A stretch of 64,000 nt of DNA from a virus (Duplodnaviria; Heunggongvirae; Uroviricota; Caudoviricetes), in the IMG/VR virus record IMGVR_UViG_3300046804_001959. The stretch is one strand, 5' to 3'. Below the pieces are notes generated by a model. The model was not told where the DNA came from. It saw nothing but the letters and a program-made list of their open reading frames with translations, and ran no database searches. Shown here piece by piece: positions 49,833 through 56,605 of this stretch. The number at the start of each line of letters is the position of its first letter. Within the stretch, counting starts at the first letter, position 1. The position numbers and the translations under genes were made by a program.

Positions 49833-50474
49833 TTATCCATTGGCTCGCAGCCAGTTTAGGATATTTTCAGGTGAAGTCTCACCGTAAGGATCGGTCTCGC
49901 AGTTGTCTTCGAAGCCCGGCTCGATGAACCACTTCTCGATCTTGCCGTTGTTGACGATGCATGCATAGCGCCACGAACGTTCACCGAAACCGAGGTTGTC
50001 CTTCTGAACTGCCATCTGCATATCACGAGTAAAGCGAACAGAACCGTCAGGGATCATCTTCACCTTCTTGATCTTCTGCTGCTTAGCCCAGCAATTCATC
50101 ACGAAAGCATCGTTGACCGACACACAGACGATGTCGTCGATGCCGAGTTCCTTGAATGCCTTGTAATTTTCTTCAAAGCCAGGAAGTTGATACGTAGAAC
50201 ATGTGGGAGTGAAGGCACCTGGAAGAGAGAAGAGGACTACGCGCTTCTTGGCAAAGTAGTCGAAAGAACTCTTATCTTCCCAACGAAACGGATTCGGGCC
50301 TTCGATCGAATCGTCTCTTACGCGTGTCTTGAATACCACATTAGGCACAACTTCAGGGAGTTCCTGAACCGTGCCGTTTTCAAACTTATGCCAATAGCGC
50401 TTGACTGGAATTGTTTCTGCCATAATATTCTCCATGAATGAAAGCGGAGTGGAAGGATTTGGTTGTACCTTCAT
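49833..50474 (-). CDS. Peroxiredoxin (Prx5-like / AhpC-TSA family). The start is probably internal (MENIMAE or MAETIP).
   Basis: FSLPGAFTPTCS contains the peroxidatic Cys. The thioredoxin fold continues with DDIVCVSVNDAFVMNCWA. Confidence 0.75.
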   Translation of the reverse strand: MKVQPNPSTPLSFMENIMAETIPVKRYWHKFENGTVQELPEVVPNVVFKTRVRDDSIEGPNPFRWEDKSSFDYFAKKRVVLFSLPGAFTPTCSTYQLPGFEENYKAFKELGIDDIVCVSVNDAFVMNCWAKQQKIKKVKMIPDGSVRFTRDMQMAVQKDNLGFGERSWRYACIVNNGKIEKWFIEPGFEDNCETDPYGETSPENILNWLRANG

Positions 50475-50981
50475 GACCTAGCCAATTACCTATCGTAATC
50501 TTCGGTCAACGACTCGTTCGCCGGTTGAGCAGGAGGACCACTCCCCGAGTCTGCCTTACCCCCACTGGCGAGGGTGTTATTCAGCCACACTCCTTACGCC
50601 ACCCGTCGGCAGCGATATCTATGTTGCCCTGCGGGATCCACCCCCGCGTACCAGCCGCATGGCCGGATCTTAGTCTCAATGCACGTATGTCGTGTCCCAG
50701 ATCAAGGGCAAAAACTGGTCGGCAGTTTTGTATCATACCGAGGATACGTGGACTTACAGAGACCGGCATTACCCGTAAAGATATCTCGCCACGTTATGAA
50801 GGCTACTGAGGTGTTGCCGCGCTACTGGCAGTCATTTCGCTCTTTACGTTCCCAGCTTCCCCCATATCGCTGAGTCACCACGGGAACTTCCTTCATCCGT
50901 TTTGTTTTCAACGCACACGCCGACGAACTTAATCCCCTGCCCTAACGTTGGTTCAGCAGACGGTACTGCTTATTCTTAAAC

Positions 50982-51056
50982 TGGCTCCTCGAATAGGATT
51001 CGAACCTATGACCGATCGGTTAACAGCCGATTGCTCTACCGCTGAGCTATCGAGGA
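50982..51056 (-). tRNA. tRNA-Asn (anticodon GTT)
   Basis: Hand-folded cloverleaf. Acceptor TCCTCGA/TCGAGGA, D arm GCTC/GAGC, anticodon loop CTGTTAA, T loop TTCGAAT, CCA encoded. Confidence 0.8.
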
Positions 51057-51077
51057 ATGAAACTCTTTATATTCTGA

Positions 51078-51112
51078 ACCTACATTATATATTAAATAAT
51101 GTACATGGTAAA
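51078..51112 (-). promoter_or_regulatory. Promoter: TGTACA-N17-TAGGTT immediately upstream of tRNA-Asn
   Basis: The motif lies about 20 nt 5-prime of the tRNA 5-prime end. Confidence 0.5.
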
Positions 51113-51222
51113 AGACGCAGTTTTTTACAGAAACCGCCATCCCAAAAACTGGAACCTGCATTATACCCAAGCAGCTTGGATGCTAGCTATCTATTGTCCG
51201 GTATCTCCGACATTTCGATCTT

Positions 51223-51300
51223 TGGTACCCTCGGTAGGATTCGAGCCTACAACCTCTCGCTTCGTAGGCGAGTGCTCTATTCCAGTTGAGCTACGAGGGC
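51223..51300 (-). tRNA. tRNA-Arg (ACG)
   Basis: Hand-folded. Anticodon stem CTCGC/GCGAG, anticodon loop CTACGAA. Confidence 0.75.
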
Positions 51301-51470
51301 ATTAAATGGCCGCCAATCCTTTGCAGGGACTTTAACACATATAGCCAAGATAATTGGTTGGCCGACCCATTTTTCTATATGTGCTGCTAGCCCTCCGGTA
51401 GCGACTAGACGTCTTACGCTTTCCGAACTCTAGCTGTCGTCGAGGATTCGAACCCCAACGGGCGATAAAC

Positions 51471-51545
51471 TGGTACCCGGTGACGGGATTGAACCGCCGA
51501 CCCTCTCGGTGTAAACGAGACGCTCTACCGCTGAGCTAACCGGGC
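51471..51545 (-). tRNA. tRNA-Val (TAC)
   Basis: Hand-folded. Anticodon stem TCTCG/CGAGA, anticodon loop TTTACAC. Confidence 0.75.
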
Positions 51546-51546
51546 A

Positions 51547-51630
51547 TGGTACTCCAAGAGGGACTCGAACCCCCACGCACTAGGCACTAGTTCCTAAGAC
51601 TAGCGTGTCTACCATTCCACCATTGGAGCA
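51547..51630 (-). tRNA. tRNA-Leu (TAG), type II
   Basis: Hand-folded. Anticodon stem CTAGT/ACTAG, loop CTTAGGA. Long variable arm TGCCTAGTGCGTG. Confidence 0.75.
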
Positions 51631-51857
51631 TTCAAAACTTTGGGATCTTGTGTCTTGCTTCTCATAGGTGAGATTTAACGGTTCTACCAGCAGTCCAACA
51701 TTCAGCGGGTTCCCTATTCACTTCGCTTAGTCCCAAACTTGGCTGACCCGTGGGACTCGAACCCACCTTAGCGCTTATATCTTTGCATAATACTCCCGAG
51801 CATACAATGCAAAGACCCCGGGGCGCATTCTCACCTGACTTAGGGCCAATAAACTCA

Positions 51858-51933
51858 TGGTGCCTTCGGAGGGAGTCGAACCCCCGACACGTGGATCTTC
51901 AATCCACTGCTCTACCAACTGAGCTACAAAGGC
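51858..51933 (-). tRNA. tRNA-Phe (GAA)
   Basis: Hand-folded. Anticodon stem GTGGA/TCCAC, loop TTGAAGA. Confidence 0.8.
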
Positions 51934-51959
51934 AAAACTTCTTAGAAGAATGCACTGAT

Positions 51960-52345
51960 TGCCTATTAACACGCATCTTAAGCGGGACTTACATCAATAC
52001 ATTCATCTAAGAAGTCTTAGATCAGGATGAGATTACTCCTGAGTAATGAGAGTCTTTGAGCCGTACCGAATCCCTTGCGAGGATTGTTAACCCGTTATCC
52101 ACTCGAGCTGTCGCCAGTCATCGAGTATCTCTCAGTGCTGCCTTTTTTAGCGTCTGGCGTTTGACGCGTCACATCATGCTATTCGACCATCAATCTTCCG
52201 CCTGCCTTGCGAGCAGTTCGAAGGCGCTAACCTCCTACGTCTTCAATCCAATCAATCACTTCCGCCTTGCGAGCTTCCATGAACCACATTCCTTTCGGTG
52301 TGGTATTAAGCACCTTTCACATGATGCCGGGACAGTCTTTGCGTT
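51960..52345 (-). ncRNA. Candidate structured ncRNA segment A (ORF-free, between tRNA-Phe and the class I TAG tRNA)
   Basis: No credible ORF. Repeated CTTGCGAG hairpin-loop modules, for example AATCC-CTTGCGA-GGATT and CTGC-CTTGCGA-GCAG. Lies inside the tRNA transcription unit. Confidence 0.4.
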
Positions 52346-52349
52346 TTTA

Positions 52350-52425
52350 TGGCGTGCAAAGTTGGGATCGAACCAACTACCTACATATCCTAAAAATGTT
52401 GCTCTACCAGATGAGCTATTTGCAA
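52350..52425 (-). tRNA. Class I tRNA with anticodon TAG (identity undetermined; U1xC72 mismatch)
   Basis: Hand-folded. D arm GCTC ATCTGGTA GAGC, anticodon arm ACATT-TTTAGGA-TATGT, T arm GTTGG TTCGATC CCAAC. Short variable arm despite a Leu-type anticodon. Confidence 0.5.
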
Positions 52426-52429
52426 AGAA

Positions 52430-52885
52430 CCTACCAAGATGTGCTGTCCCTGTCGCTTCACTACCTTTTGAGTAGCAAAATACAACACACCTCATGTCTT
52501 TCGGCTTGCGGCCTAATTAACCATGCTTCGCGGATCCGGTTATCCCTTCTTCGCTTGCATTACTACATCGCCTTTCCTTGCGAGGTCAGACTCTGTAACT
52601 ACCTATTAGTGTACAGCATTCGTTGACTTGGTTTGTTGCAGCTCGGCCACCACAGCCTCTTGGAACTCAGCGACTGCCTCTGTTCCTATCCTTTCGGACT
52701 ACAACTTCAACTTACTGCCTCACGCCATCCTACTGACGCTGAGTTGCTTTCGACCGAGATCGAGTCAACTCACACTTAGGCTTGTATAGATGGACTCTTG
52801 CGAGCGCAGCTGCGTAGGCTTTACTGCTTTGGCCTCCGTTACCGGAAGTTACCCTAATGACGCTATACCGCCATTCGTTATTTTC
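52430..52885 (-). ncRNA. Candidate structured ncRNA segment B (ORF-free, downstream of the promoter motif at 52888..52926)
   Basis: No credible ORF. Further CTTGCGAG / GCTTGCGGC modules. Preceded by a GTGTACA-N17-TAGAGT promoter. Confidence 0.4.
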
Positions 52886-52887
52886 TT

Positions 52888-52926
52888 ACTCTATCAAAGA
52901 ATTCAGATAATGTACACCCTTAAAAC
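52888..52926 (-). promoter_or_regulatory. Promoter: TGTACA-N17-TAGAGT firing into ORF-free segment B and the tRNA cluster
   Basis: Same architecture as the other copies. Confidence 0.55.
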
Positions 52927-52945
52927 GCACATTAGCTAAAATAAT

Positions 52946-53021
52946 TGGTGGAGAATATCGGACTCGAACCGATCACCTCCTGCTTGCAAAGCAGGCGCTC
53001 TCCCAGATGAGCTAATCCCCC
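52946..53021 (-). tRNA. tRNA-Ala (TGC)
   Basis: Hand-folded. Anticodon stem CCTGC/GCAGG, loop TTTGCAA. Confidence 0.8.
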
Positions 53022-53028
53022 ACTAACT

Positions 53029-53103
53029 TGGTGCCGCAGGATGGAATCGAACCACCGACAAGTGGCTTATGAGACCACCGCTCTACCGCTGAGCTACCGC
53101 GAC
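53029..53103 (-). tRNA. tRNA-Met (CAT). The elongator, initiator or Ile-lysidine type is not resolved.
   Basis: Hand-folded. Anticodon stem GTGGT/GCCAC, loop CTCATAA. Confidence 0.75.
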
Positions 53104-53108
53104 GAAAC

Positions 53109-53182
53109 TGGAGCGACCGAAGGGATTCGAACCCTCTCCATCAGCTTGGAAGGCTGAGTCCTCTCCCAGGAGAACGGTCGCA
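53109..53182 (-). tRNA. tRNA-Gly (TCC)
   Basis: Hand-folded. Anticodon stem TCAGC/GCTGA, loop CTTCCAA. Unusual D arm. Confidence 0.7.
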
Positions 53183-53257
53183 TGGTGCCGGTTGTGGGAT
53201 TCGAACTCACGACCTACCGCTTACAAGGCGGTTGCTCTACCACTGAGCTAAACCGGC
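53183..53257 (-). tRNA. tRNA-Thr (TGT)
   Basis: Hand-folded. Anticodon stem ACCGC/GCGGT, loop CTTGTAA. Confidence 0.8.
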
Positions 53258-53262
53258 AAAAA

Positions 53263-53338
53263 TGGTCGGGAAGACAGGGATCGAACCTGCGACCTCGCGG
53301 TCCCAAACCGCGCGCTCTCCCACCTGAGCTACTTCCCG
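53263..53338 (-). tRNA. tRNA-Pro (TGG)
   Basis: Hand-folded. Anticodon stem CGCGG/CCGCG, loop TTTGGGA. Confidence 0.8.
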
Positions 53339-53389
53339 TTGTGGCTTATTATATATACGAGATATTTCAAGCCGCTGAAATTAATTTAC

Positions 53390-53533
53390 TGTCAACCAAC
53401 TTCCACATGATCTGCTCGACGATGTTGGCTTCTTCATCCATGTCTGCTTCAAACAAAGCAGTCTGGAGAGCGCCGACACTGCCATCGACCAGTTCATCAA
53501 AGTACGGTGCATCTTGTTCAAAAACGTTCATAA
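53390..53533 (-). CDS. Small acidic protein (47 aa) embedded in the tRNA cluster
   Basis: Own translation: MNVFEQDAPYFDELVDGSVGALQTALFEADMDEEANIVEQIMWKLVDSK, with an AAGGA RBS. The coordinates are approximate (the ORF was not in the track). Confidence 0.4.
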
Positions 53534-53547
53534 TATATCCTTTACAA

Positions 53548-53623
53548 TGGATGCCCCTTCAGGGATCGAACCTGAACTCTTCGGAATCAAAATCCGACGT
53601 GTTGCCAATTACACCAAGGGGCA
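53548..53623 (-). tRNA. tRNA-Gln (TTG)
   Basis: Hand-folded. Anticodon stem TCGGA/TCCGA, loop TTTTGAT. Confidence 0.8.
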
Positions 53624-53630
53624 ATATAGA

Positions 53631-53716
53631 TGGTGGGTGACCAGGGAATCGAACCCCGTATGTCTTTCGACGCCAGATTTACAGTCTGGTGTAGTCGCCA
53701 ATGCTACTCGTCACCC
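53631..53716 (-). tRNA. tRNA-Tyr (GTA), type II
   Basis: Hand-folded. Anticodon stem CCAGA/TCTGG, loop CTGTAAA. Long variable arm. Confidence 0.75.
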
Positions 53717-53722
53717 AAAACT

Positions 53723-53798
53723 TGGTGGACCCCGTGGGGCTCGAACCCACGACCTACAGGTTAAAAGCCCGTTGCTCTACCTACTGAGCTAGAGGTCC
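53723..53798 (-). tRNA. tRNA-Lys (TTT)
   Basis: Hand-folded. Anticodon stem ACGGG/CCTGT, loop CTTTTAA. Confidence 0.8.
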
Positions 53799-53802
53799 GA
53801 AA

Positions 53803-53878
53803 TGGTAGACGATACAGGGCTCGAACCTGTGACCTAGGGCTTAAGAGGCCCGCGCTCTACCTACTGAGCTAATCGTCC
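53803..53878 (-). tRNA. tRNA-Lys (CTT)
   Basis: Hand-folded. Anticodon loop CTCTTAA. One mismatch at the base of the anticodon stem. Confidence 0.6.
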
Positions 53879-53886
53879 ATTAAACT

Positions 53887-54120
53887 TTAACCGATGTAGA
53901 TCCGATATCCATCAGAATCTACAGGTGCACCGACCGAGCGGCGCTCGATGTAGTACGAATCGATGAATCGATCACCGTCGCGAGTGTACACACCATGGGC
54001 AGTCCGTGCTTCTTCTTCAGAAGCGTACACACCCAGGAGTTCCGAACCTTCGTAGTCGAACTCGCCTAACAGCACAAAAACTTCCATGACAAAATTCCTT
54101 TTCAATCTGTATATTCTCAA
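53887..54120 (-). CDS. hypothetical protein
   Basis: 77-aa ORF between tRNA groups. A promoter motif lies upstream. Confidence 0.4.
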   Translation of the reverse strand: MRIYRLKRNFVMEVFVLLGEFDYEGSELLGVYASEEEARTAHGVYTRDGDRFIDSYYIERRSVGAPVDSDGYRIYIG

Positions 54121-54175
54121 CCTACTACGCAGTAGATAATTTGTACACCCTAAAAACGAACTTTATCGAAAAAAA

Positions 54176-54252
54176 CTGGTAGGGACGGCGGGACTCGAAC
54201 CCGCACTGTGAGGATTTTAAGTCCCCTGACTCTGCCTTTGGCCTACGTCCCC
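54176..54252 (-). tRNA. tRNA-like gene with a Leu (TAA)-type anticodon loop, but a short variable arm and an irregular D arm
   Basis: Hand-folded. Acceptor GGGGACG/CGTCCCT. Anticodon arm GGGGA-CTTAAAA-TCCTC. T arm GCGGG TTCGAGT CCCGC. The D region GGCCAAAGGCAGAGTCA is non-canonical. Confidence 0.45.
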
Positions 54253-54328
54253 ATGGGGTGAAGGAGGAGTTTCGAAATCCCGACCTCTCGGTCCACAACC
54301 GAGCGCTCTGCCTCTGAGCTACCAACAC
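54253..54328 (-). tRNA. tRNA-His (GTG)-like with G-1, two U-U mismatches in the acceptor stem, and a weak T stem
   Basis: Hand-folded. G-GTGTTGG TA GCTC... Anticodon arm CTCGG-TTGTGGA-CCGAG. The 3-prime acceptor strand is CCTTCAC, where CCAACAC would be expected. Confidence 0.5.
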
Positions 54329-54329
54329 C

Positions 54330-54416
54330 ATGGCGGAACGTCTGGGAATCGAACCCAGTCTACCCATAAGGTAGTACAGGTTAGCAACCTGCTGCATTAC
54401 CATCCTGCCCACGTTC
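54330..54416 (-). tRNA. tRNA-Ser (GCT), type II
   Basis: Hand-folded. Acceptor GGAACGT/ACGTTCC. Anticodon arm GCAGG-TTGCTAA-CCTGT. Long variable arm. Confidence 0.7.
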
Positions 54417-54422
54417 CTGAAA

Positions 54423-54499
54423 CTGGTGACCCCACCGGGTGTCGATCCCGGTTCTCAGCTGTGAAAGAGCTGGATTCTAGCCAACGTAAACTATGGGGC
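54423..54499 (-). tRNA. tRNA-Glu (TTC)-like (atypical D and T loops)
   Basis: Hand-folded. Anticodon arm CAGCT-CTTTCAC-AGCTG. T arm CCGGG ATCGACA CCCGG. Acceptor GGCCCCA/TGGGGTC. Confidence 0.5.
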
Positions 54500-54584
54500 C
54501 AAAGTGGCTGCAGCGCAAGTATGGGCCATTGACGAACAATGAAGCATTGGCTGGCAATTTAAACGGGACACGTACCACATAAAA

Positions 54585-54674
54585 ATGGAGGAAGCGGTGG
54601 GATTCGAACCCACGGTACCTTTCGGTACGACGGTTTTCAAGACCGTTCCATTCAACCGGACTCTGGCACGCTTC
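54585..54674 (-). tRNA. tRNA-Ser (TGA), type II
   Basis: Hand-folded. Anticodon arm ACGGT-CTTGAAA-ACCGT. Variable arm CGTACCGAAAGGTACCG. Confidence 0.8.
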
Positions 54675-54679
54675 CAAAT

Positions 54680-54755
54680 TTGGTGCGAATGACAGGGCTC
54701 GAACCTGTGACCTAACGATTATCGGTCGTTTGCTCTACCAACTGAGCTACACTCG
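54680..54755 (-). tRNA. tRNA-Ile (GAT)
   Basis: Hand-folded. Anticodon arm AACGA-CCGATAA-TCGTT. Confidence 0.8.
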
Positions 54756-54790
54756 CACATAAAGAGTTTCTAACGATTTCAAAGAACAGA

Positions 54791-54865
54791 CTGGCGAAGG
54801 TGCCGGGATTCGAACCCAGAACGACGGTTTTGGAGACCGTAATGATAGCCGTTTCACCACACCAA
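54791..54865 (-). tRNA. tRNA-Trp (CCA) with two U-U mismatches in the acceptor stem
   Basis: Hand-folded. Anticodon arm ACGGT-CTCCAAA-ACCGT. Acceptor 5-prime GTTGGTG against 3-prime CACCTTC. Confidence 0.65.
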
Positions 54866-54871
54866 CGTAAT

Positions 54872-54948
54872 CTGGCGATCTAGAAGGGACTTGAACCCTC
54901 GACCTCTCGCGTGACAGGCGAGTGCTCTAACCAACTGAGCTACTAGAC
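54872..54948 (-). tRNA. tRNA-Asp (GTC)
   Basis: Hand-folded. Anticodon arm CTCGC-CTGTCAC-GCGAG. Confidence 0.8.
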
Positions 54949-55006
54949 CATGAACCAGTATTTATACCCTTCTACACGATCGACGCTTATTTGTACACCT
55001 TTATTT

Positions 55007-55450
55007 TCAGTTTAGATGACGAACAGCGTGGTCAGCAGCGTGAGTAGCAGCGAACGATGCAGGCTTGACCTTCGCATCCAGACCGAGCGAGCCTTTCACC
55101 CAACCAAGAGCTTCCTTGATCGCGATCGAAGACTTGTGCTTCGGGTTCGGATTAATGTCAAGGTGCACTTCCATGTGACGATCGCCGAGAACATCGATGA
55201 TGCTCGTCGCAGCAAGAACCGCCATCTGCACTTCGTTCAATAAACGCTGCTTCAGGTTACCGAAGTCAGGCATATCCACCGATTCGTGGAACAACTTGCA
55301 ACCACGCTTGGAGTCCATGTGGACGATGATCACGGTGCTGTACTTGGCATACCACATCTTGTTCTTTTTGAAACGAATAGAGTCACAGCCGATGTAGACT
55401 GACGATTCCTTGCTCGAATCAAGAATCGCTTGCTTTGCTTGTTCAATCAT
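55007..55450 (-). CDS. RNase H-like fold protein (YkuK/DUF458-like)
   Basis: MIEQAKQAILDSSKESSVYIGCDSIRF...YSTVIIVH resembles the N-terminal pattern of that family. 147 aa. Confidence 0.35.
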   Translation of the reverse strand: MIEQAKQAILDSSKESSVYIGCDSIRFKKNKMWYAKYSTVIIVHMDSKRGCKLFHESVDMPDFGNLKQRLLNEVQMAVLAATSIIDVLGDRHMEVHLDINPNPKHKSSIAIKEALGWVKGSLGLDAKVKPASFAATHAADHAVRHLN

Positions 55451-55466
55451 TGTACTTACTCAAAAA

Positions 55467-55544
55467 TGGAGGGCCGGGTGGGATTCGAACCCACGGCTTT
55501 CAGGATTTGCAGTCCTGTGCGATGGACCACTCCGCCACCGACCC
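55467..55544 (-). tRNA. tRNA-Cys (GCA)
   Basis: Hand-folded. Anticodon arm CAGGA-CTGCAAA-TCCTG. Confidence 0.8.
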
Positions 55545-55545
55545 T

Positions 55546-55640
55546 TGGTACTCCCGGTAGGACTCGAACCTACATCGTCGGCTAATCTGGCCGTCATGCC
55601 TTATAAGGACACCGCTCTACCATTGAGCTACAGGAGTAAA
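55546..55640 (-). tRNA. tRNA-like gene, about 95 nt, type-II-like (anticodon loop CTTATAA; identity undetermined)
   Basis: Hand-folded. Canonical acceptor (ACTCCTG/CGGGAGT), D arm and T arm (GTAGG TTCGAGT CCTAC). Anticodon stem GTGTC/GGCAT with two G-U pairs. A long extra hairpin GACGGC-CAGATTA-GCCGAC. Confidence 0.4.
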
Positions 55641-55641
55641 T

Positions 55642-55718
55642 TGGCGCGCCGTGCAGGACTCGAACCTGCCACCTCAAGTTTAGAAGACTCGCGCTCTATC
55701 CGGATGAGCTAACGGCGC
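55642..55718 (-). tRNA. tRNA-Arg (TCT)
   Basis: Hand-folded. Anticodon arm CGAGT-CTTCTAA-ACTTG. Confidence 0.8.
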
Positions 55719-55724
55719 AATTGA

Positions 55725-55958
55725 TTAGGCGATGCGACCTATTCGATGGAGGAGATTGGCAACCTTGACCAGTTCTTCATCTGCGGATCGCTCAGTTTCT
55801 GATGTCATAACCAGCATAGTTTTGTAATGAAACAAAGCGCGCTTGAGAACAGGCATATCGGCTGGTGCGAACGTACCGCCTTTTGCTTCTTTCGGTTTGC
55901 TCTTAAAAATTTCCATTACTTCGACTCCAACAACCAAGTGTTTGCAGTATCCATCCAA
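55725..55958 (-). CDS. hypothetical protein
   Basis: 77-aa ORF. Confidence 0.35.
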   Translation of the reverse strand: MDGYCKHLVVGVEVMEIFKSKPKEAKGGTFAPADMPVLKRALFHYKTMLVMTSETERSADEELVKVANLLHRIGRIA

Positions 55959-56103
55959 TCCAAAGCCTCGAGAGGCAACGATTCTCCACGACGCTGAGCG
56001 TTCAACAGTTCGCAGAAGGTTACTTCTACTGCCTTCGGATCAGCCATAGTAGGAAACGCGAAAAGTTCAACTTCCATGATTCACCTCCGTAGTATACTAT
56101 ATA

Positions 56104-56319
56104 TCAGCGAGACGTAAACACCGCCACGATAAAAACAACCAAAAAGATAACCGCAGCGATTGCCAGCGGAATCCAGAACGGTGAGAGAACCCACAGCCAC
56201 GACCAGGCAATATAACCAGTAAGCTTGAGAGTGATGAAGATCAGACCAAGCAGGCCGAGGATGGGAAACTGAACGGTAACGTTTTTAGATTCAGACATAA
56301 CGAGCTCCAGTATAATCAT
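56104..56319 (-). CDS. small membrane protein
   Basis: 71 aa with two hydrophobic helices. Confidence 0.35.
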   Translation of the reverse strand: MIILELVMSESKNVTVQFPILGLLGLIFITLKLTGYIAWSWLWVLSPFWIPLAIAAVIFLVVFIVAVFTSR

Positions 56320-56605
56320 AGACGGTGAAGTGAGTGGCGTCAGCGATCAGACAGTCTTGCATCGCACGATGGCGGCCACGAATATAAGTACGGCCGTTAG
56401 TTGCGGGCATTTCGCGACCGATAGCGACGGTACGAGGACCACGATAGCGAAGACGGACACGGACACGTTCAGCGCGATAAGCGGCGAGCACTTGTTCGCG
56501 AAGTTCGATCGGAATCCAATACGCACGGACGGGGTAGTAGTTTTGACGAGTCGCGTCGGCGGGGACGGTGTAGGTCGATTCGATCTGTGCAACGGTAAGA
56601 GTCAC
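56291..56605 (-). CDS. hypothetical protein
   Basis: 104 aa, Arg-rich. Confidence 0.35.
   Translation of the reverse strand: MTLTVAQIESTYTVPADATRQNYYPVRAYWIPIELREQVLAAYRAERVRVRLRYRGPRTVAIGREMPATNGRTYIRGRHRAMQDCLIADATHFTVYDYTGARYV

What the first reader, a model, noticed from the sequence alone, without database searches (positions are those of the whole stretch)
51960..52926. About 0.9 kb of ORF-free, motif-rich sequence inside the tRNA cluster: candidate large structured ncRNAs driven by the phage promoter motif
Two ORF-free blocks, 52430..52885 and 51960..52345, flank a tRNA. They lie directly downstream of a TGTACA-N17-TAGAGT promoter and contain at least six copies of a CTTGCGAG module, several of them placed as 7-nt loops on 4-5 bp stems (AATCC-CTTGCGA-GGATT; CTGC-CTTGCGA-GCAG). 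A longer direct repeat CTTCCGCC(TG)CCTTGCGAGC occurs twice, 66 nt apart. The six-frame ORFs here are short, overlapping and unsupported. T4 itself encodes stable RNAs of unknown function beside its tRNAs, and large ornate RNAs (GOLLD, ROOL) are typically found next to phage tRNA genes.
Basis: partly seen in the sequence, partly recalled or inferred. Interest (0 to 1): 0.75.

Follow-up and report, generated by a model that had tools for sequence, protein, structure and literature searches.

The report
GOLLD RNA with embedded tRNA
The ORF-free stretch is one gene for a GOLLD RNA, a known giant phage RNA that builds RNA-only cages, and it carries a tRNA-like insert whose anticodon changes unusually fast between related phages.

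Summary
Window 52024-52493 (minus strand) matches the Rfam GOLLD model end to end at 171.4 bits (gathering score 150). The upstream block, 52494 to about 52881, is the GOLLD 5' domain. The whole element is therefore one RNA of about 860 nt, not two. It starts at a recurrent phage promoter (52916-52888). The "tRNA-Leu" (52425-52350) sits inside its internal linker. The "CTTGCGAG modules" are six C-GCAA-G tetraloops read on the wrong strand.

Thirty-three distinct full-length relatives from viral contigs support 210 base pairs: 97.4% of cells are paired and 151 pairs show compensatory changes. No reading frame is conserved.

By homology with solved GOLLD structures, the RNA should form a 10-14-mer nanocage with the linker and its tRNA inside. 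Its function is unknown.

One extra result emerged. The embedded tRNA-like module keeps its cloverleaf, U33 and a purine at 37. Its anticodon, however, is among the fastest-changing sites in the RNA. It always duplicates a free-standing tRNA of the same cluster, and 22 of 26 relatives lack the CCA end that 98% of neighbouring tRNAs encode.

Verdict: a new member of a known kind.

The parts
52888..52916 (-). Promoter TGTACA-N17-TAGAGT. The transcription start is inferred near 52881.
   Evidence: Exact motif. The motif family occurs 20 times against 1.0 expected, 18 on the gene strand. Relatives carry TTTACA-N17-TATAAG at the same alignment position.
52024..52881 (-). GOLLD RNA, about 860 nt including the embedded tRNA. 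The 5' end is inferred from the promoter and the 3' end from the end of the covariance-model match.
52494..52881 (-). GOLLD 5' domain, a structured region not covered by the Rfam model.
   Evidence: Conserved in 33 relatives, with covarying helices 2-23. A profile of this domain finds matches directly upstream of the 3' domains of other GOLLD loci.
52688..52699 (-). Invariant hairpin GUCCGAAAGGAU with a GAAA loop. It may be the counterpart of the conserved L11a GAAA loop of env-38 (inference).
   Evidence: Invariant in all 33 relatives. It was part of the search pattern that found 47 viral loci. L11a is described in PMC12286853.
52024..52493 (-). GOLLD 3' domain (Rfam RF02032, model positions 1-416).
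   Evidence: 171.4 bits against a gathering score of 150, E = 2e-46. Helices 24-46 covary.
52350..52425 (-). Embedded tRNA-like module in the GOLLD linker. It is 76 nt of class I length, has anticodon UAG, a U1-C72 mismatch, G73 and an encoded CCA.
   Evidence: ARAGORN. Rfam tRNA model 50.3 bits. It lies inside the GOLLD alignment. The D, anticodon and T stems covary (helices 27-29).
52443..52450 (-). 5' strand (GGGACAGC) of the helix that closes the linker carrying the tRNA.
   Evidence: Alignment columns 537-544 pair with 666-674. All cells are paired and 4 of 8 pairs show compensatory changes.
52329..52337 (-). 3' strand (GACUGUCCC) of the linker-closing helix.
52309..52313 (-). Pseudoknot strand GUGCU.
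   Evidence: Columns 690-694 pair with 868-872. All cells are paired and 4 of 5 pairs are compensatory.
52135..52139 (-). Pseudoknot strand AGCAC.
52797..52802 (-). C-GCAA-G tetraloop 1 (5' domain). Relatives mostly carry another tetraloop sequence here (commonly GUAA or GCAA).
52577..52582 (-). C-GCAA-G tetraloop 2 (5' domain).
52505..52510 (-). C-GCAA-G tetraloop 3 (5' domain). CGCAA is invariant in all relatives; the closing G is nearly so.
52266..52271 (-). C-GCAA-G tetraloop 4 (3' domain). It is invariant in relatives.
52206..52211 (-). C-GCAA-G tetraloop 5 (3' domain).
52074..52079 (-). C-GCAA-G tetraloop 6, on an inserted stem of the 3' domain.
52028..52036 (-). Conserved terminal loop GUAAUCUCA (L27 of GOLLD).
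   Evidence: It matches the model consensus and is nearly invariant in relatives. Its role as a tertiary hub is described in PMC12286853.
51934..52019 (-). Very stable hairpin of about 85 nt between the GOLLD 3' end and tRNA-Phe. It probably protects the 3' end or serves as a processing element (inference).
   Evidence: Inverted repeat. Folding energy -35.6 kcal/mol, z = -6.0. The base of the stem is conserved in relatives and the apex varies.
51858..51933 (-). tRNA-Phe, which starts 1 nt after the hairpin. RNase P cleavage here would set the 3' end of the GOLLD transcript (inference).

Best explanation
The region is a single gene for a GOLLD RNA on the minus strand.

Shown:
- The 3' half matches the curated GOLLD model over its full length.
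- The 5' half is a conserved, covarying structured domain contiguous with it.
- A tRNA-like module sits in the linker after the first hairpin of the Rfam model. A covarying helix closes that linker.
- Six GCAA tetraloops cap conserved stems.
- A recurrent phage promoter lies just upstream.

Inferred:
- The RNA is made during infection as the first product of a GOLLD-plus-tRNA operon.
- Its 3' end is set by RNase P cutting at the downstream tRNA-Phe and is guarded by a long hairpin.
- Like the solved GOLLD RNAs, copies assemble through kissing loops and tetraloop/A-minor contacts into a closed RNA-only cage of 10-14 chains. The linker, and so the tRNA-like module, faces the interior.
- The biological role of GOLLD is unknown. 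My working reading is that the cage holds or shields the tRNA-like module (see the novel case).
For: - Model match: Rfam GOLLD at 171.4 bits against a threshold of 150, model positions 1-416. All nine relatives and published phages tested also pass, at 160-217 bits.
- Structure: in 33 distinct full-length relatives, 210 predicted pairs give 97.4% of cells paired, against 78.0% when shuffled and 32-40% when slid. 151 pairs show compensatory change, and 0 of 500 shuffles reach the observed values.
- Long-range pairings: the linker-closing helix and a pseudoknot are each 100% paired with 4 compensatory pairs.
- 5' domain: a profile of it hits directly upstream of other GOLLD 3' domains.
- Promoter: the motif occurs 20 times against 1.0 expected.
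- Context: 26 tRNA genes plus a family B DNA polymerase, a DnaB-like helicase and a UvsX match indicate a T4-like phage.
- Literature: GOLLD forms 10-, 12- or 14-mer cages with the linker inside, and tRNAs are sometimes found in that linker (PMC12286853; PMC12990946).
Against: - No transcript data exist for this phage, so both RNA ends and any processing are inferred.
- Cage formation is extrapolated from two solved homologues that are too distant for sequence-level alignment. nhmmer did not connect the env-38 sequence to this family.
- I could not identify the J13/15-L20 kissing pair by covariation here, because the candidate segment is invariant.
- GOLLD is patchy: only 9 of 47 related tRNA-rich loci carry it. 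It is therefore dispensable, which limits what can be said about its function.
Confidence: 0.9

Rival explanations
1. Split GOLLD. The embedded tRNA is cut out by RNase P and a 3' processing enzyme like any other tRNA of the operon. The element would then yield three RNAs: the 5' domain plus the first hairpin, a mature tRNA, and the remainder of the 3' domain.
For: In this window the module has a 6/7-bp acceptor stem and an encoded CCA, as all 25 other tRNAs of the window do. It scores 50.3 bits on the tRNA model.
Against: A covarying 8-bp helix and the outer helix of the first hairpin bridge the insertion, so the pieces would stay paired even if cut. Seven of 33 relatives have a degenerate or missing tRNA but keep both flanks contiguous. 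In Mycobacterium aubagnense GOLLD, no separate product of the embedded pseudo-tRNA was detected on Northern blots (PMC6582537).
Confidence: 0.2
2. Ordinary passenger tRNA. The embedded element is a normal decoding tRNA-Leu(UAG) that happens to sit in a tolerant loop of GOLLD. It has no functional link to GOLLD, and its anticodon drifts because it is redundant.
For: - The anticodon loops follow normal tRNA rules: U33 and a purine at 37 are kept, and NNU anticodons are followed by AA.
- The window copy has CCA.
- The cloverleaf stems covary.
Against: - The module is 76 nt with no long variable arm, whereas the window's own tRNA-Leu(UAG) is 83 nt.
- Leu- and Ser-type anticodons sit on a body of class I length (71-76 nt) throughout.
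- 22 of 26 embedded modules lack CCA, against 466 of 475 neighbouring tRNAs that have it.
- The end of the acceptor stem is eroded in many relatives, with G3-A70 or C2-A71 mismatches.
- Syntenic free-standing tRNAs keep their anticodons while the embedded one switches.
- The module occupies the same site in 41 of 59 distinct GOLLD 3' domains examined.
Confidence: 0.25
3. Protein-coding region on the + strand, using the 139-aa ORF at 52056-52475 and/or the 119-aa ORF at 52267-52626.
For: Open frames of this length exist, and antisense open stretches of 72-231 aa occur in relatives.
Against: - Both ORFs start with TTG and run antisense to a tRNA and to the GOLLD match.
- They have no Pfam family.
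- In relatives the longest open frame changes frame and length. The homologous segment carries 1-5 in-frame stops in 29 of the 32 relatives, and indels that are not multiples of three.
- Substitutions are compensatory in RNA stems.
Confidence: 0.01
4. Non-functional spacer or decayed tRNA remnants, with the repeats arising by chance.
For: Phage tRNA clusters do contain decayed tRNA-like pieces, for example 51849-51741 in this window.
Against: The full-length model match is above the curated threshold. Covariation is strong across about 860 nt in 33 relatives. All five copies of the 8-mer in the window are clustered here.
Confidence: 0.01

Closest known systems
GOLLD RNA (Rfam RF02032), including env-38 GOLLD (cryo-EM 14-mer cage, PDB 9MEE) and Streptococcus agalactiae GOLLD (12-mer)
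   Same: - The 3' domain matches the model over its full length above threshold.
- A structured 5' domain of about 390 nt is joined to it.
- The linker occupies the same place.
- The conserved L27 loop, the GNRA loops and the pseudoknots are present.
- The total size is about 860 nt.
- The context is a phage tRNA cluster.
   Different: The sequence is too far from env-38 for nhmmer to link them. The carrier is an uncultured T4-like phage lineage with no close match among deposited phage genomes. Here the linker is filled by a tRNA-like module rather than an unstructured A/U-rich stretch. Oligomer number and assembly were not tested.
GOLLD of Caulobacter phiCbK-type phages and of roseophages DSS3_MAL1 and MD18, Mesorhizobium phage Cp1R7A-A1 and roseophages DSS3P8 and vB_RpoS-V10
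   Same: These are the nearest deposited sequences, at 67-72% identity over the first hairpin, the tRNA and part of the 3' domain. In phiCbK, Magneto and DSS3_MAL1 a tRNA-like module sits at the same linker position. phiCbK and Magneto differ by 4 of 7 anticodon-loop bases (UCC against CUU) across the 241-nt aligned stretch; the only other difference is one base well downstream of the tRNA.
   Different: In the three records I opened (DSS3_MAL1, phiCbK, Magneto) only the tRNA is annotated in this stretch, not GOLLD. Their 5' domains are not alignable to this one by blastn. DSS3_MAL1 and phiCbK have a tmRNA gene next to GOLLD, which this window lacks.
Mycobacterial GOLLD in tRNA arrays, with an embedded tRNA-Phe or pseudo-tRNA
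   Same: A tRNA or pseudo-tRNA lies in J13/15 of GOLLD, inside a large horizontally acquired tRNA cluster (PMC6582537; PMC12990946).
   Different: That GOLLD sits in a bacterial genome or prophage-like array. The embedded gene was reported as a pseudo-tRNA with no detectable separate product. The window copy keeps a CCA end and a near-complete acceptor stem.
ROOL RNA
   Same: It is another large ornate phage RNA found next to tRNA genes, and it also forms RNA-only cages with an internal disordered linker (PMC12286853).
   Different: Its sequence and fold are unrelated. No ROOL match appears in the window at the gathering score, nor at E up to 1 in 50000-56500.

Membership tests
GOLLD RNA (RF02032) | Covariance-model score at or above Rfam's gathering score over the whole model | tested here: met
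   171.4 bits against 150, model positions 1-416 of 416, E = 2e-46, window 52493..52024 minus strand.
GOLLD RNA (RF02032) | Conserved 3'-domain helices supported by compensatory changes | tested here: met
   Helices 24-46 of alignment A1 are 90-100% paired, and most pairs show changes on both sides.
GOLLD RNA (RF02032) | Signature conserved blocks: the UCAAAAG loop of the first hairpin, GAAAGGUG, AGUGGAUAA and the terminal loop GUAAUCUCA | tested here: met
   All are present in the alignment to the model consensus. They are invariant or nearly so in the 33 relatives, except the UCAAAAG loop, which most relatives replace with CUAACAAG.
GOLLD RNA (RF02032) | Long-range and pseudoknot pairings | tested here: met
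   The linker-closing helix (8 bp) and a 5-bp pseudoknot are each 100% paired with 4 compensatory pairs. The outer helix of the first hairpin is supported in the register.
GOLLD RNA (RF02032) | A less conserved but structured 5' domain of about 400 nt, contiguous with the 3' domain | tested here: met
   52494-52881: helices 2-23 covary. A profile of this domain hits just upstream of other GOLLD 3' domains. Direct homology to the env-38 5' domain was not shown.
GOLLD RNA (RF02032) | A variable linker after the first hairpin of the 3' domain that can carry a tRNA | tested here: met
   The tRNA at 52425-52350 aligns within the linker of the model. 26 of 33 close relatives and 41 of 59 distinct GOLLD 3' domains examined carry a tRNA-like call there. 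Known from PMC12286853.
GOLLD RNA (RF02032) | Phage or prophage context next to tRNA genes | tested here: met
   There are 26 tRNA calls in 50982-55718, all on the minus strand. T4-like replication genes are present.
GOLLD RNA (RF02032) | Self-assembly into a homo-oligomeric RNA cage | not testable with these tools
   Known for env-38 and the S. agalactiae RNA only. It would need native gels or cryo-EM of this RNA.
GOLLD RNA (RF02032) | Expression as a stable RNA during the phage lytic cycle | not testable with these tools
   There is only promoter evidence.
ROOL RNA | Match to the Rfam ROOL model | tested here: not met
   No match at the gathering score in the window, nor at E up to 1 in 50000-56500.
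HEARO RNA | Match to the Rfam HEARO model | tested here: not met
   No match.
Canonical decoding tRNA (embedded module 52425-52350) | Cloverleaf recognised by tRNA models | tested here: met
   ARAGORN calls tRNA-Leu(tag). The Rfam tRNA model gives 50.3 bits against a threshold of 29. The D, anticodon and T stems covary.
Canonical decoding tRNA (embedded module 52425-52350) | Intact 7-bp acceptor stem and a 3' CCA like the phage's other tRNAs | tested here: inconclusive
   The window copy has 6 of 7 pairs (U1-C72 mismatch), G73 and an encoded CCA. Only 4 of 26 embedded modules in relatives have CCA, against 466 of 475 free-standing tRNAs.
Canonical decoding tRNA (embedded module 52425-52350) | Body type fits the anticodon: bacterial tRNA-Leu has a long variable arm (established knowledge) | tested here: not met
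   The module is 76 nt with a 5-nt variable loop. The window's other tRNA-Leu(tag) is 83 nt.
Canonical decoding tRNA (embedded module 52425-52350) | Anticodon stable among orthologues | tested here: not met
   At least 11 anticodons occur on one homologous body. Anticodon position 35 is the second most changeable of 837 columns, and positions 34 and 36 are in the top 4%. Flanking tRNAs keep theirs.
Canonical decoding tRNA (embedded module 52425-52350) | Processing to a 76-nt species and aminoacylation | not testable with these tools
   This needs tRNA sequencing or acid-gel Northern blots.

The most novel reading that the evidence does not exclude
The tRNA-like module in the GOLLD linker is the cargo or business end of the cage, not a passenger. 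Each cage would hold 10-14 copies of an anticodon-stem-loop look-alike of one particular tRNA, most often Lys-CUU or Arg-UCU, and also Leu-UAG, Ser-UGA and others.

The displayed anticodon is swapped rapidly between otherwise near-identical GOLLDs. This is the pattern expected for a decoy or sponge for host tRNA-targeting defence nucleases, or for a shielded spare tRNA, evolving in an arms race.

My evidence shows the hypervariability, the redundancy with free-standing tRNAs, the retained fold and the frequent loss of the CCA end. It does not show any interaction with a nuclease.
Probability: 0.2. Interest if true: 0.85.

Novelty: new member of a known kind. Interest (0 to 1): 0.5.

Why it matters
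GOLLD has been known since 2009 and was recently shown to build RNA-only cages, yet its function is still open. This window adds a well-delimited GOLLD, with promoter, both domains, embedded tRNA and 3' hairpin, in a T4-like phage lineage with many environmental relatives. Those relatives give a deep, covariation-rich alignment of the poorly modelled 5' domain.

More usefully, comparing relatives singles out the embedded tRNA-like module. Its fold is kept, its anticodon is among the fastest-changing sites, it always duplicates a normal tRNA of the same phage, and it usually lacks CCA. That turns "what is the cage for?" into concrete experiments.

The cultivable Caulobacter phages phiCbK and Magneto suit those experiments well. 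In the 241-nt stretch compared here, their GOLLD sequences differ by four bases of the anticodon loop and one further base.

Tried and rejected
- blastn of the whole region against deposited phages found only partial matches of 67-72%. Most cover only the first hairpin and the tRNA, and the two longest also cover part of the 3' domain. It found no close relative.
- A scan for the pattern of the first 3'-domain hairpin in viral contigs gave 120 GOLLD-like loci, but none had a 5' domain alignable by blastn. Close relatives came from neighbour-protein searches and from a 5'-domain motif.
- nhmmer profiles of either domain did not hit the env-38 sequence, which I copied from the paper's supplement as 816 of 833 nt with apparent text-extraction errors. 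Direct homology to the solved 5' domain is therefore unproven.
- I looked for the J13/15-L20 kissing pair by covariation. The variable bases there pair with the outer helix of the first hairpin, and the rest is invariant, so the search was inconclusive.
- I looked for any Watson-Crick covarying partner of the anticodon within GOLLD and found none. This rejects the idea that the anticodon loop is an internal or homotypic pairing element.
- My first register for the outer helix of the first hairpin was off by one, giving only 42.9% paired. The register found is 100% paired.
- Protein-coding readings were rejected.
- A script timed out once.
- The original GOLLD paper and the Morgado 2020 paper are not in the held library.
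Full report
**What is there**

The region lies inside a run of 26 tRNA calls, all on the minus strand, between 50982 and 55718. A scan of the whole window against Rfam at curated thresholds gave one non-tRNA match here. GOLLD (RF02032) matches 52493..52024 on the minus strand at 171.4 bits against a gathering score of 150, covering model positions 1-416 of 416. A more permissive scan of 50000-56500 returned the same match and nothing for ROOL or HEARO. In the alignment to the model, the ARAGORN "tRNA-Leu(tag)" at 52425..52350 falls inside the GOLLD match. It sits in the A/U-rich linker that follows the first hairpin.

- TGTACA-N17-TAGAGT is at 52916..52888 on the minus strand.
- The looser motif occurs 20 times in the window against 1.0 expected, 18 of them on the minus strand, which carries most of the long ORFs. 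It is a real, recurrent promoter-like element.
- All five exact CTTGCGAG copies in the 64-kb window lie in 52074-52804.
- Read on the transcribed strand, the core is C-GCAA-G, a GNRA tetraloop with its closing pair. Six of the window's 23 CGCAAG sites lie in this 730-nt stretch.
- The two quoted stems and the two-copy repeat are present. The repeat spacing is 64 nt, not 66.
- The + strand has TTG-start ORFs of 139 and 119 aa. They have no Pfam family. In relatives the longest open frame changes frame and length, and the homologous segment carries in-frame stops and indels that are not multiples of three.

**Relatives**

Deposited phage genomes hold only distant partial matches: phiCbK-type Caulobacter phages, roseophages, and Mesorhizobium and Sinorhizobium phages. 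These matches centre on the first hairpin and the tRNA. The rest of the window matches deposited phages only weakly, at UvsX and DNA polymerase. Pfam finds a family B DNA polymerase and a DnaB-like helicase. The carrier is therefore an uncultured T4-like phage.

Searching viral contigs with two neighbouring proteins and with a conserved 5'-domain motif gave 33 distinct full-length relatives at 59-88% identity. All nine relatives and published phages tested pass the GOLLD threshold, at 160-217 bits.

**Structure**

The alignment of the 33 sequences is conserved from just after the promoter to the end of the model match.

| Measure (210 predicted pairs) | Observed | Shuffled partners | Slid partners |
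|---|---|---|---|
| Cells forming a standard pair | 97.4% | 78.0% | 32-40% |
| Covariation score | 0.577 | 0.209 | 0.06-0.08 |

- RNAalifold predicts 210 pairs, and 151 of them show a compensatory double change.
- None of 500 shuffles reaches the observed values.
- Both halves are supported: helices 2-23 in the 5' domain and helices 24-46 in the 3' domain.
- Three further pairings cross the nested structure. Two are strongly supported, each 100% paired with four compensatory pairs:
  - an 8-bp helix between the internal loop of the first hairpin and the sequence just after the tRNA, which closes the linker;
  - a 5-bp pseudoknot.
- The third is the outer helix of the first hairpin, supported in the register.
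- The same complementary pair of segments as in the linker-closing helix (GAUAGAC and GUCUAUC) can be read in the env-38 sequence from the paper's supplement. That reading is my own inspection.
- A profile of the 5' domain finds matches immediately upstream of the 3' domains of other, more distant GOLLD loci.

The two "blocks" are therefore the two domains of one GOLLD RNA of about 860 nt.

**Ends**

Relatives carry a sigma-70-like TTTACA-N17-TATAAG where the window has TGTACA-N17-TAGAGT, and sequence conservation begins a few bases downstream. This places the start near 52881 (inference).

After the model's end comes an 85-nt hairpin, 52019..51934, with a folding energy of -35.6 kcal/mol and z = -6.0. 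The base of its stem is conserved in relatives and its apex varies. tRNA-Phe starts one base later. RNase P cleavage there would release the GOLLD 3' end with a protective hairpin (inference from the known role of RNase P).

**How it most likely works**

According to the cryo-EM work:
- env-38 GOLLD forms a closed 14-mer;
- the S. agalactiae RNA forms a 12-mer, or a 10-mer for the 3' domain alone;
- the cages are held together by kissing loops, tetraloop-receptor contacts and A-minor contacts;
- the 5' domains cap the cage;
- the variable linker points into the interior;
- tRNAs are sometimes present in that linker.

The window RNA has the conserved 3' core, the L27 loop, several invariant GCAA loops and an invariant GAAA hairpin in the 5' domain. 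I therefore infer the same kind of assembly, with the tRNA-like module inside. This step is not shown here. The function of GOLLD remains unknown in the literature I could search.

**The embedded tRNA-like module**

This is the part that goes beyond a routine identification.

- Occurrence and anticodons: at the same alignment position, 26 of the 33 relatives have an ARAGORN tRNA call. The bodies are clearly homologous, but the anticodons differ: CUU, UCU, UAG, UGA, GCU, UUC, UAU, UCA, GUU, UGG and AUG, plus two odd-sized loops. Seven relatives have a degenerate or missing module.
- Wider set: 41 of 59 distinct GOLLD 3' domains examined carry such a module. All are 71-76 nt. Lys-CUU (10) and Arg-UCU (8) are the commonest.
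- Rates: on a tree built from the rest of the RNA, positions 32 and 35 of the anticodon loop are the two most changeable of 837 columns (15 and 14 changes against a mean of 3.3). Positions 34 and 36 are in the top 4%. U33 changes only three times, and position 37 stays a purine.
- Close pairs: closely related GOLLDs differ mainly in the anticodon loop.
  - L277 and L291 are 95% identical elsewhere but differ at 5 of 7 loop bases (Fisher p = 8e-6).
  - The window and its 92%-identical relative L121 differ at 4 of 7 (p = 1e-3). The pairs tested are not independent.
- Published example: in the 241-nt stretch aligned, phiCbK and Magneto differ at four anticodon-loop bases (UCC against CUU) and at one base well downstream of the tRNA.
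- Controls:
  - Syntenic free-standing tRNAs keep their anticodons across the same contigs.
  - In 16 of the 18 clusters examined, the embedded anticodon duplicates a free-standing tRNA of the same cluster. The exceptions are L121 (AUG) and L303 (UAU); two further modules have loops with no standard anticodon. Duplicated partners include long-arm Leu and Ser tRNAs, even though the embedded body is of class I length.
  - 466 of 475 free-standing tRNAs encode CCA, against 4 of 26 embedded modules. The window copy is one of the four.
  - The cloverleaf stems covary (helices 27-29).
  - No other GOLLD column pairs with the anticodon.

The module is therefore under selection for its fold. In most lineages it is not selected for an aminoacylatable end, and its anticodon turns over fast.

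A decoy or shield role against tRNA-targeting defences fits what is known of phage tRNAs (PMC10264068, PMC11555353 and PMC11464382, listed). It also fits the "inhibited storage" idea of PMC12990946. It remains a hypothesis, to which I give about 0.2. I found no statement of this anticodon variability in the papers I could read, but the two most relevant papers are not held.

**Comparison and novelty**

Every GOLLD membership feature that could be tested was met. Cage assembly and expression could not be tested. GOLLD with an embedded tRNA is already described, so this is a new member of a known kind. The element is accessory: only 9 of 47 related tRNA-rich loci have it, with the caveat that the fetched stretches may not cover whole clusters.

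**Verdict**

Interest is moderate. It comes from the current attention to GOLLD cages and from the handle that the hypervariable embedded anticodon gives on their unknown function.

Noticed in passing
window 50442-50614 (-): A manA RNA motif (RF01745, 62.5 bits against a threshold of 55.2) lies directly upstream of a Redoxin/AhpC-TSA ORF (49833-50474, minus strand). The same pairing occurs in relative L121.
   Followed up: partly
window 51741-51849 (-): A tRNA-like element with a 7-bp acceptor stem (UUGGCCC/GGGUCAG) and a canonical T arm but an aberrant middle. ARAGORN finds it only in relaxed intron mode, as 'Ser(gct) with an 18-nt intron'. It lies in the 228-nt gap between tRNA-Phe and tRNA-Leu(tag), and parts of that gap are conserved in other contigs. 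It could be a decayed tRNA or a T4-style stable tRNA-like RNA.
   Followed up: partly
window 51301-51470: A 170-nt gap between tRNA-Arg(acg) and tRNA-Val has no Rfam match and no blastn relative among the roughly 330 loci fetched.
   Followed up: partly
window 51934-52019 (-): An unusually stable 85-nt hairpin (-35.6 kcal/mol, z = -6.0) lies between GOLLD and tRNA-Phe. In relatives it follows GOLLD whatever the next tRNA is. The base of the stem is conserved and the apex varies in sequence and length.
   Followed up: partly
window 55546-55637 (-); L121 near its tRNA cluster: ARAGORN calls a 92-nt 'tRNA-Ile(tat)', far longer than a normal tRNA-Ile. The closest relative, L121, has a 76-nt Met(cat) at the syntenic place and an extra 'Pyl(cta)' call, which has an amber-reading anticodon.
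   Followed up: no
window 55007-55450 (-): An ORF with a Ribonuclease H-like domain (PF04308, E = 1e-22) sits inside the tRNA cluster. It is widely conserved in related viral contigs.
   Followed up: partly
L326 (DSS3_MAL1) 2094-2510; L327 (phiCbK) 696-1014: In these two published phages a tmRNA gene lies right next to the unannotated GOLLD. In the stretches I opened, the records annotate tRNAs (and in DSS3_MAL1 the tmRNA) but not GOLLD.
   Followed up: no
window 51077-51137 (-): A terminator-like hairpin (51137..51117) is followed at once by another copy of the TGTACA-N17-TAnnnT promoter (51105..51077) before tRNA-Asn. This suggests the GOLLD operon ends there.
   Followed up: no
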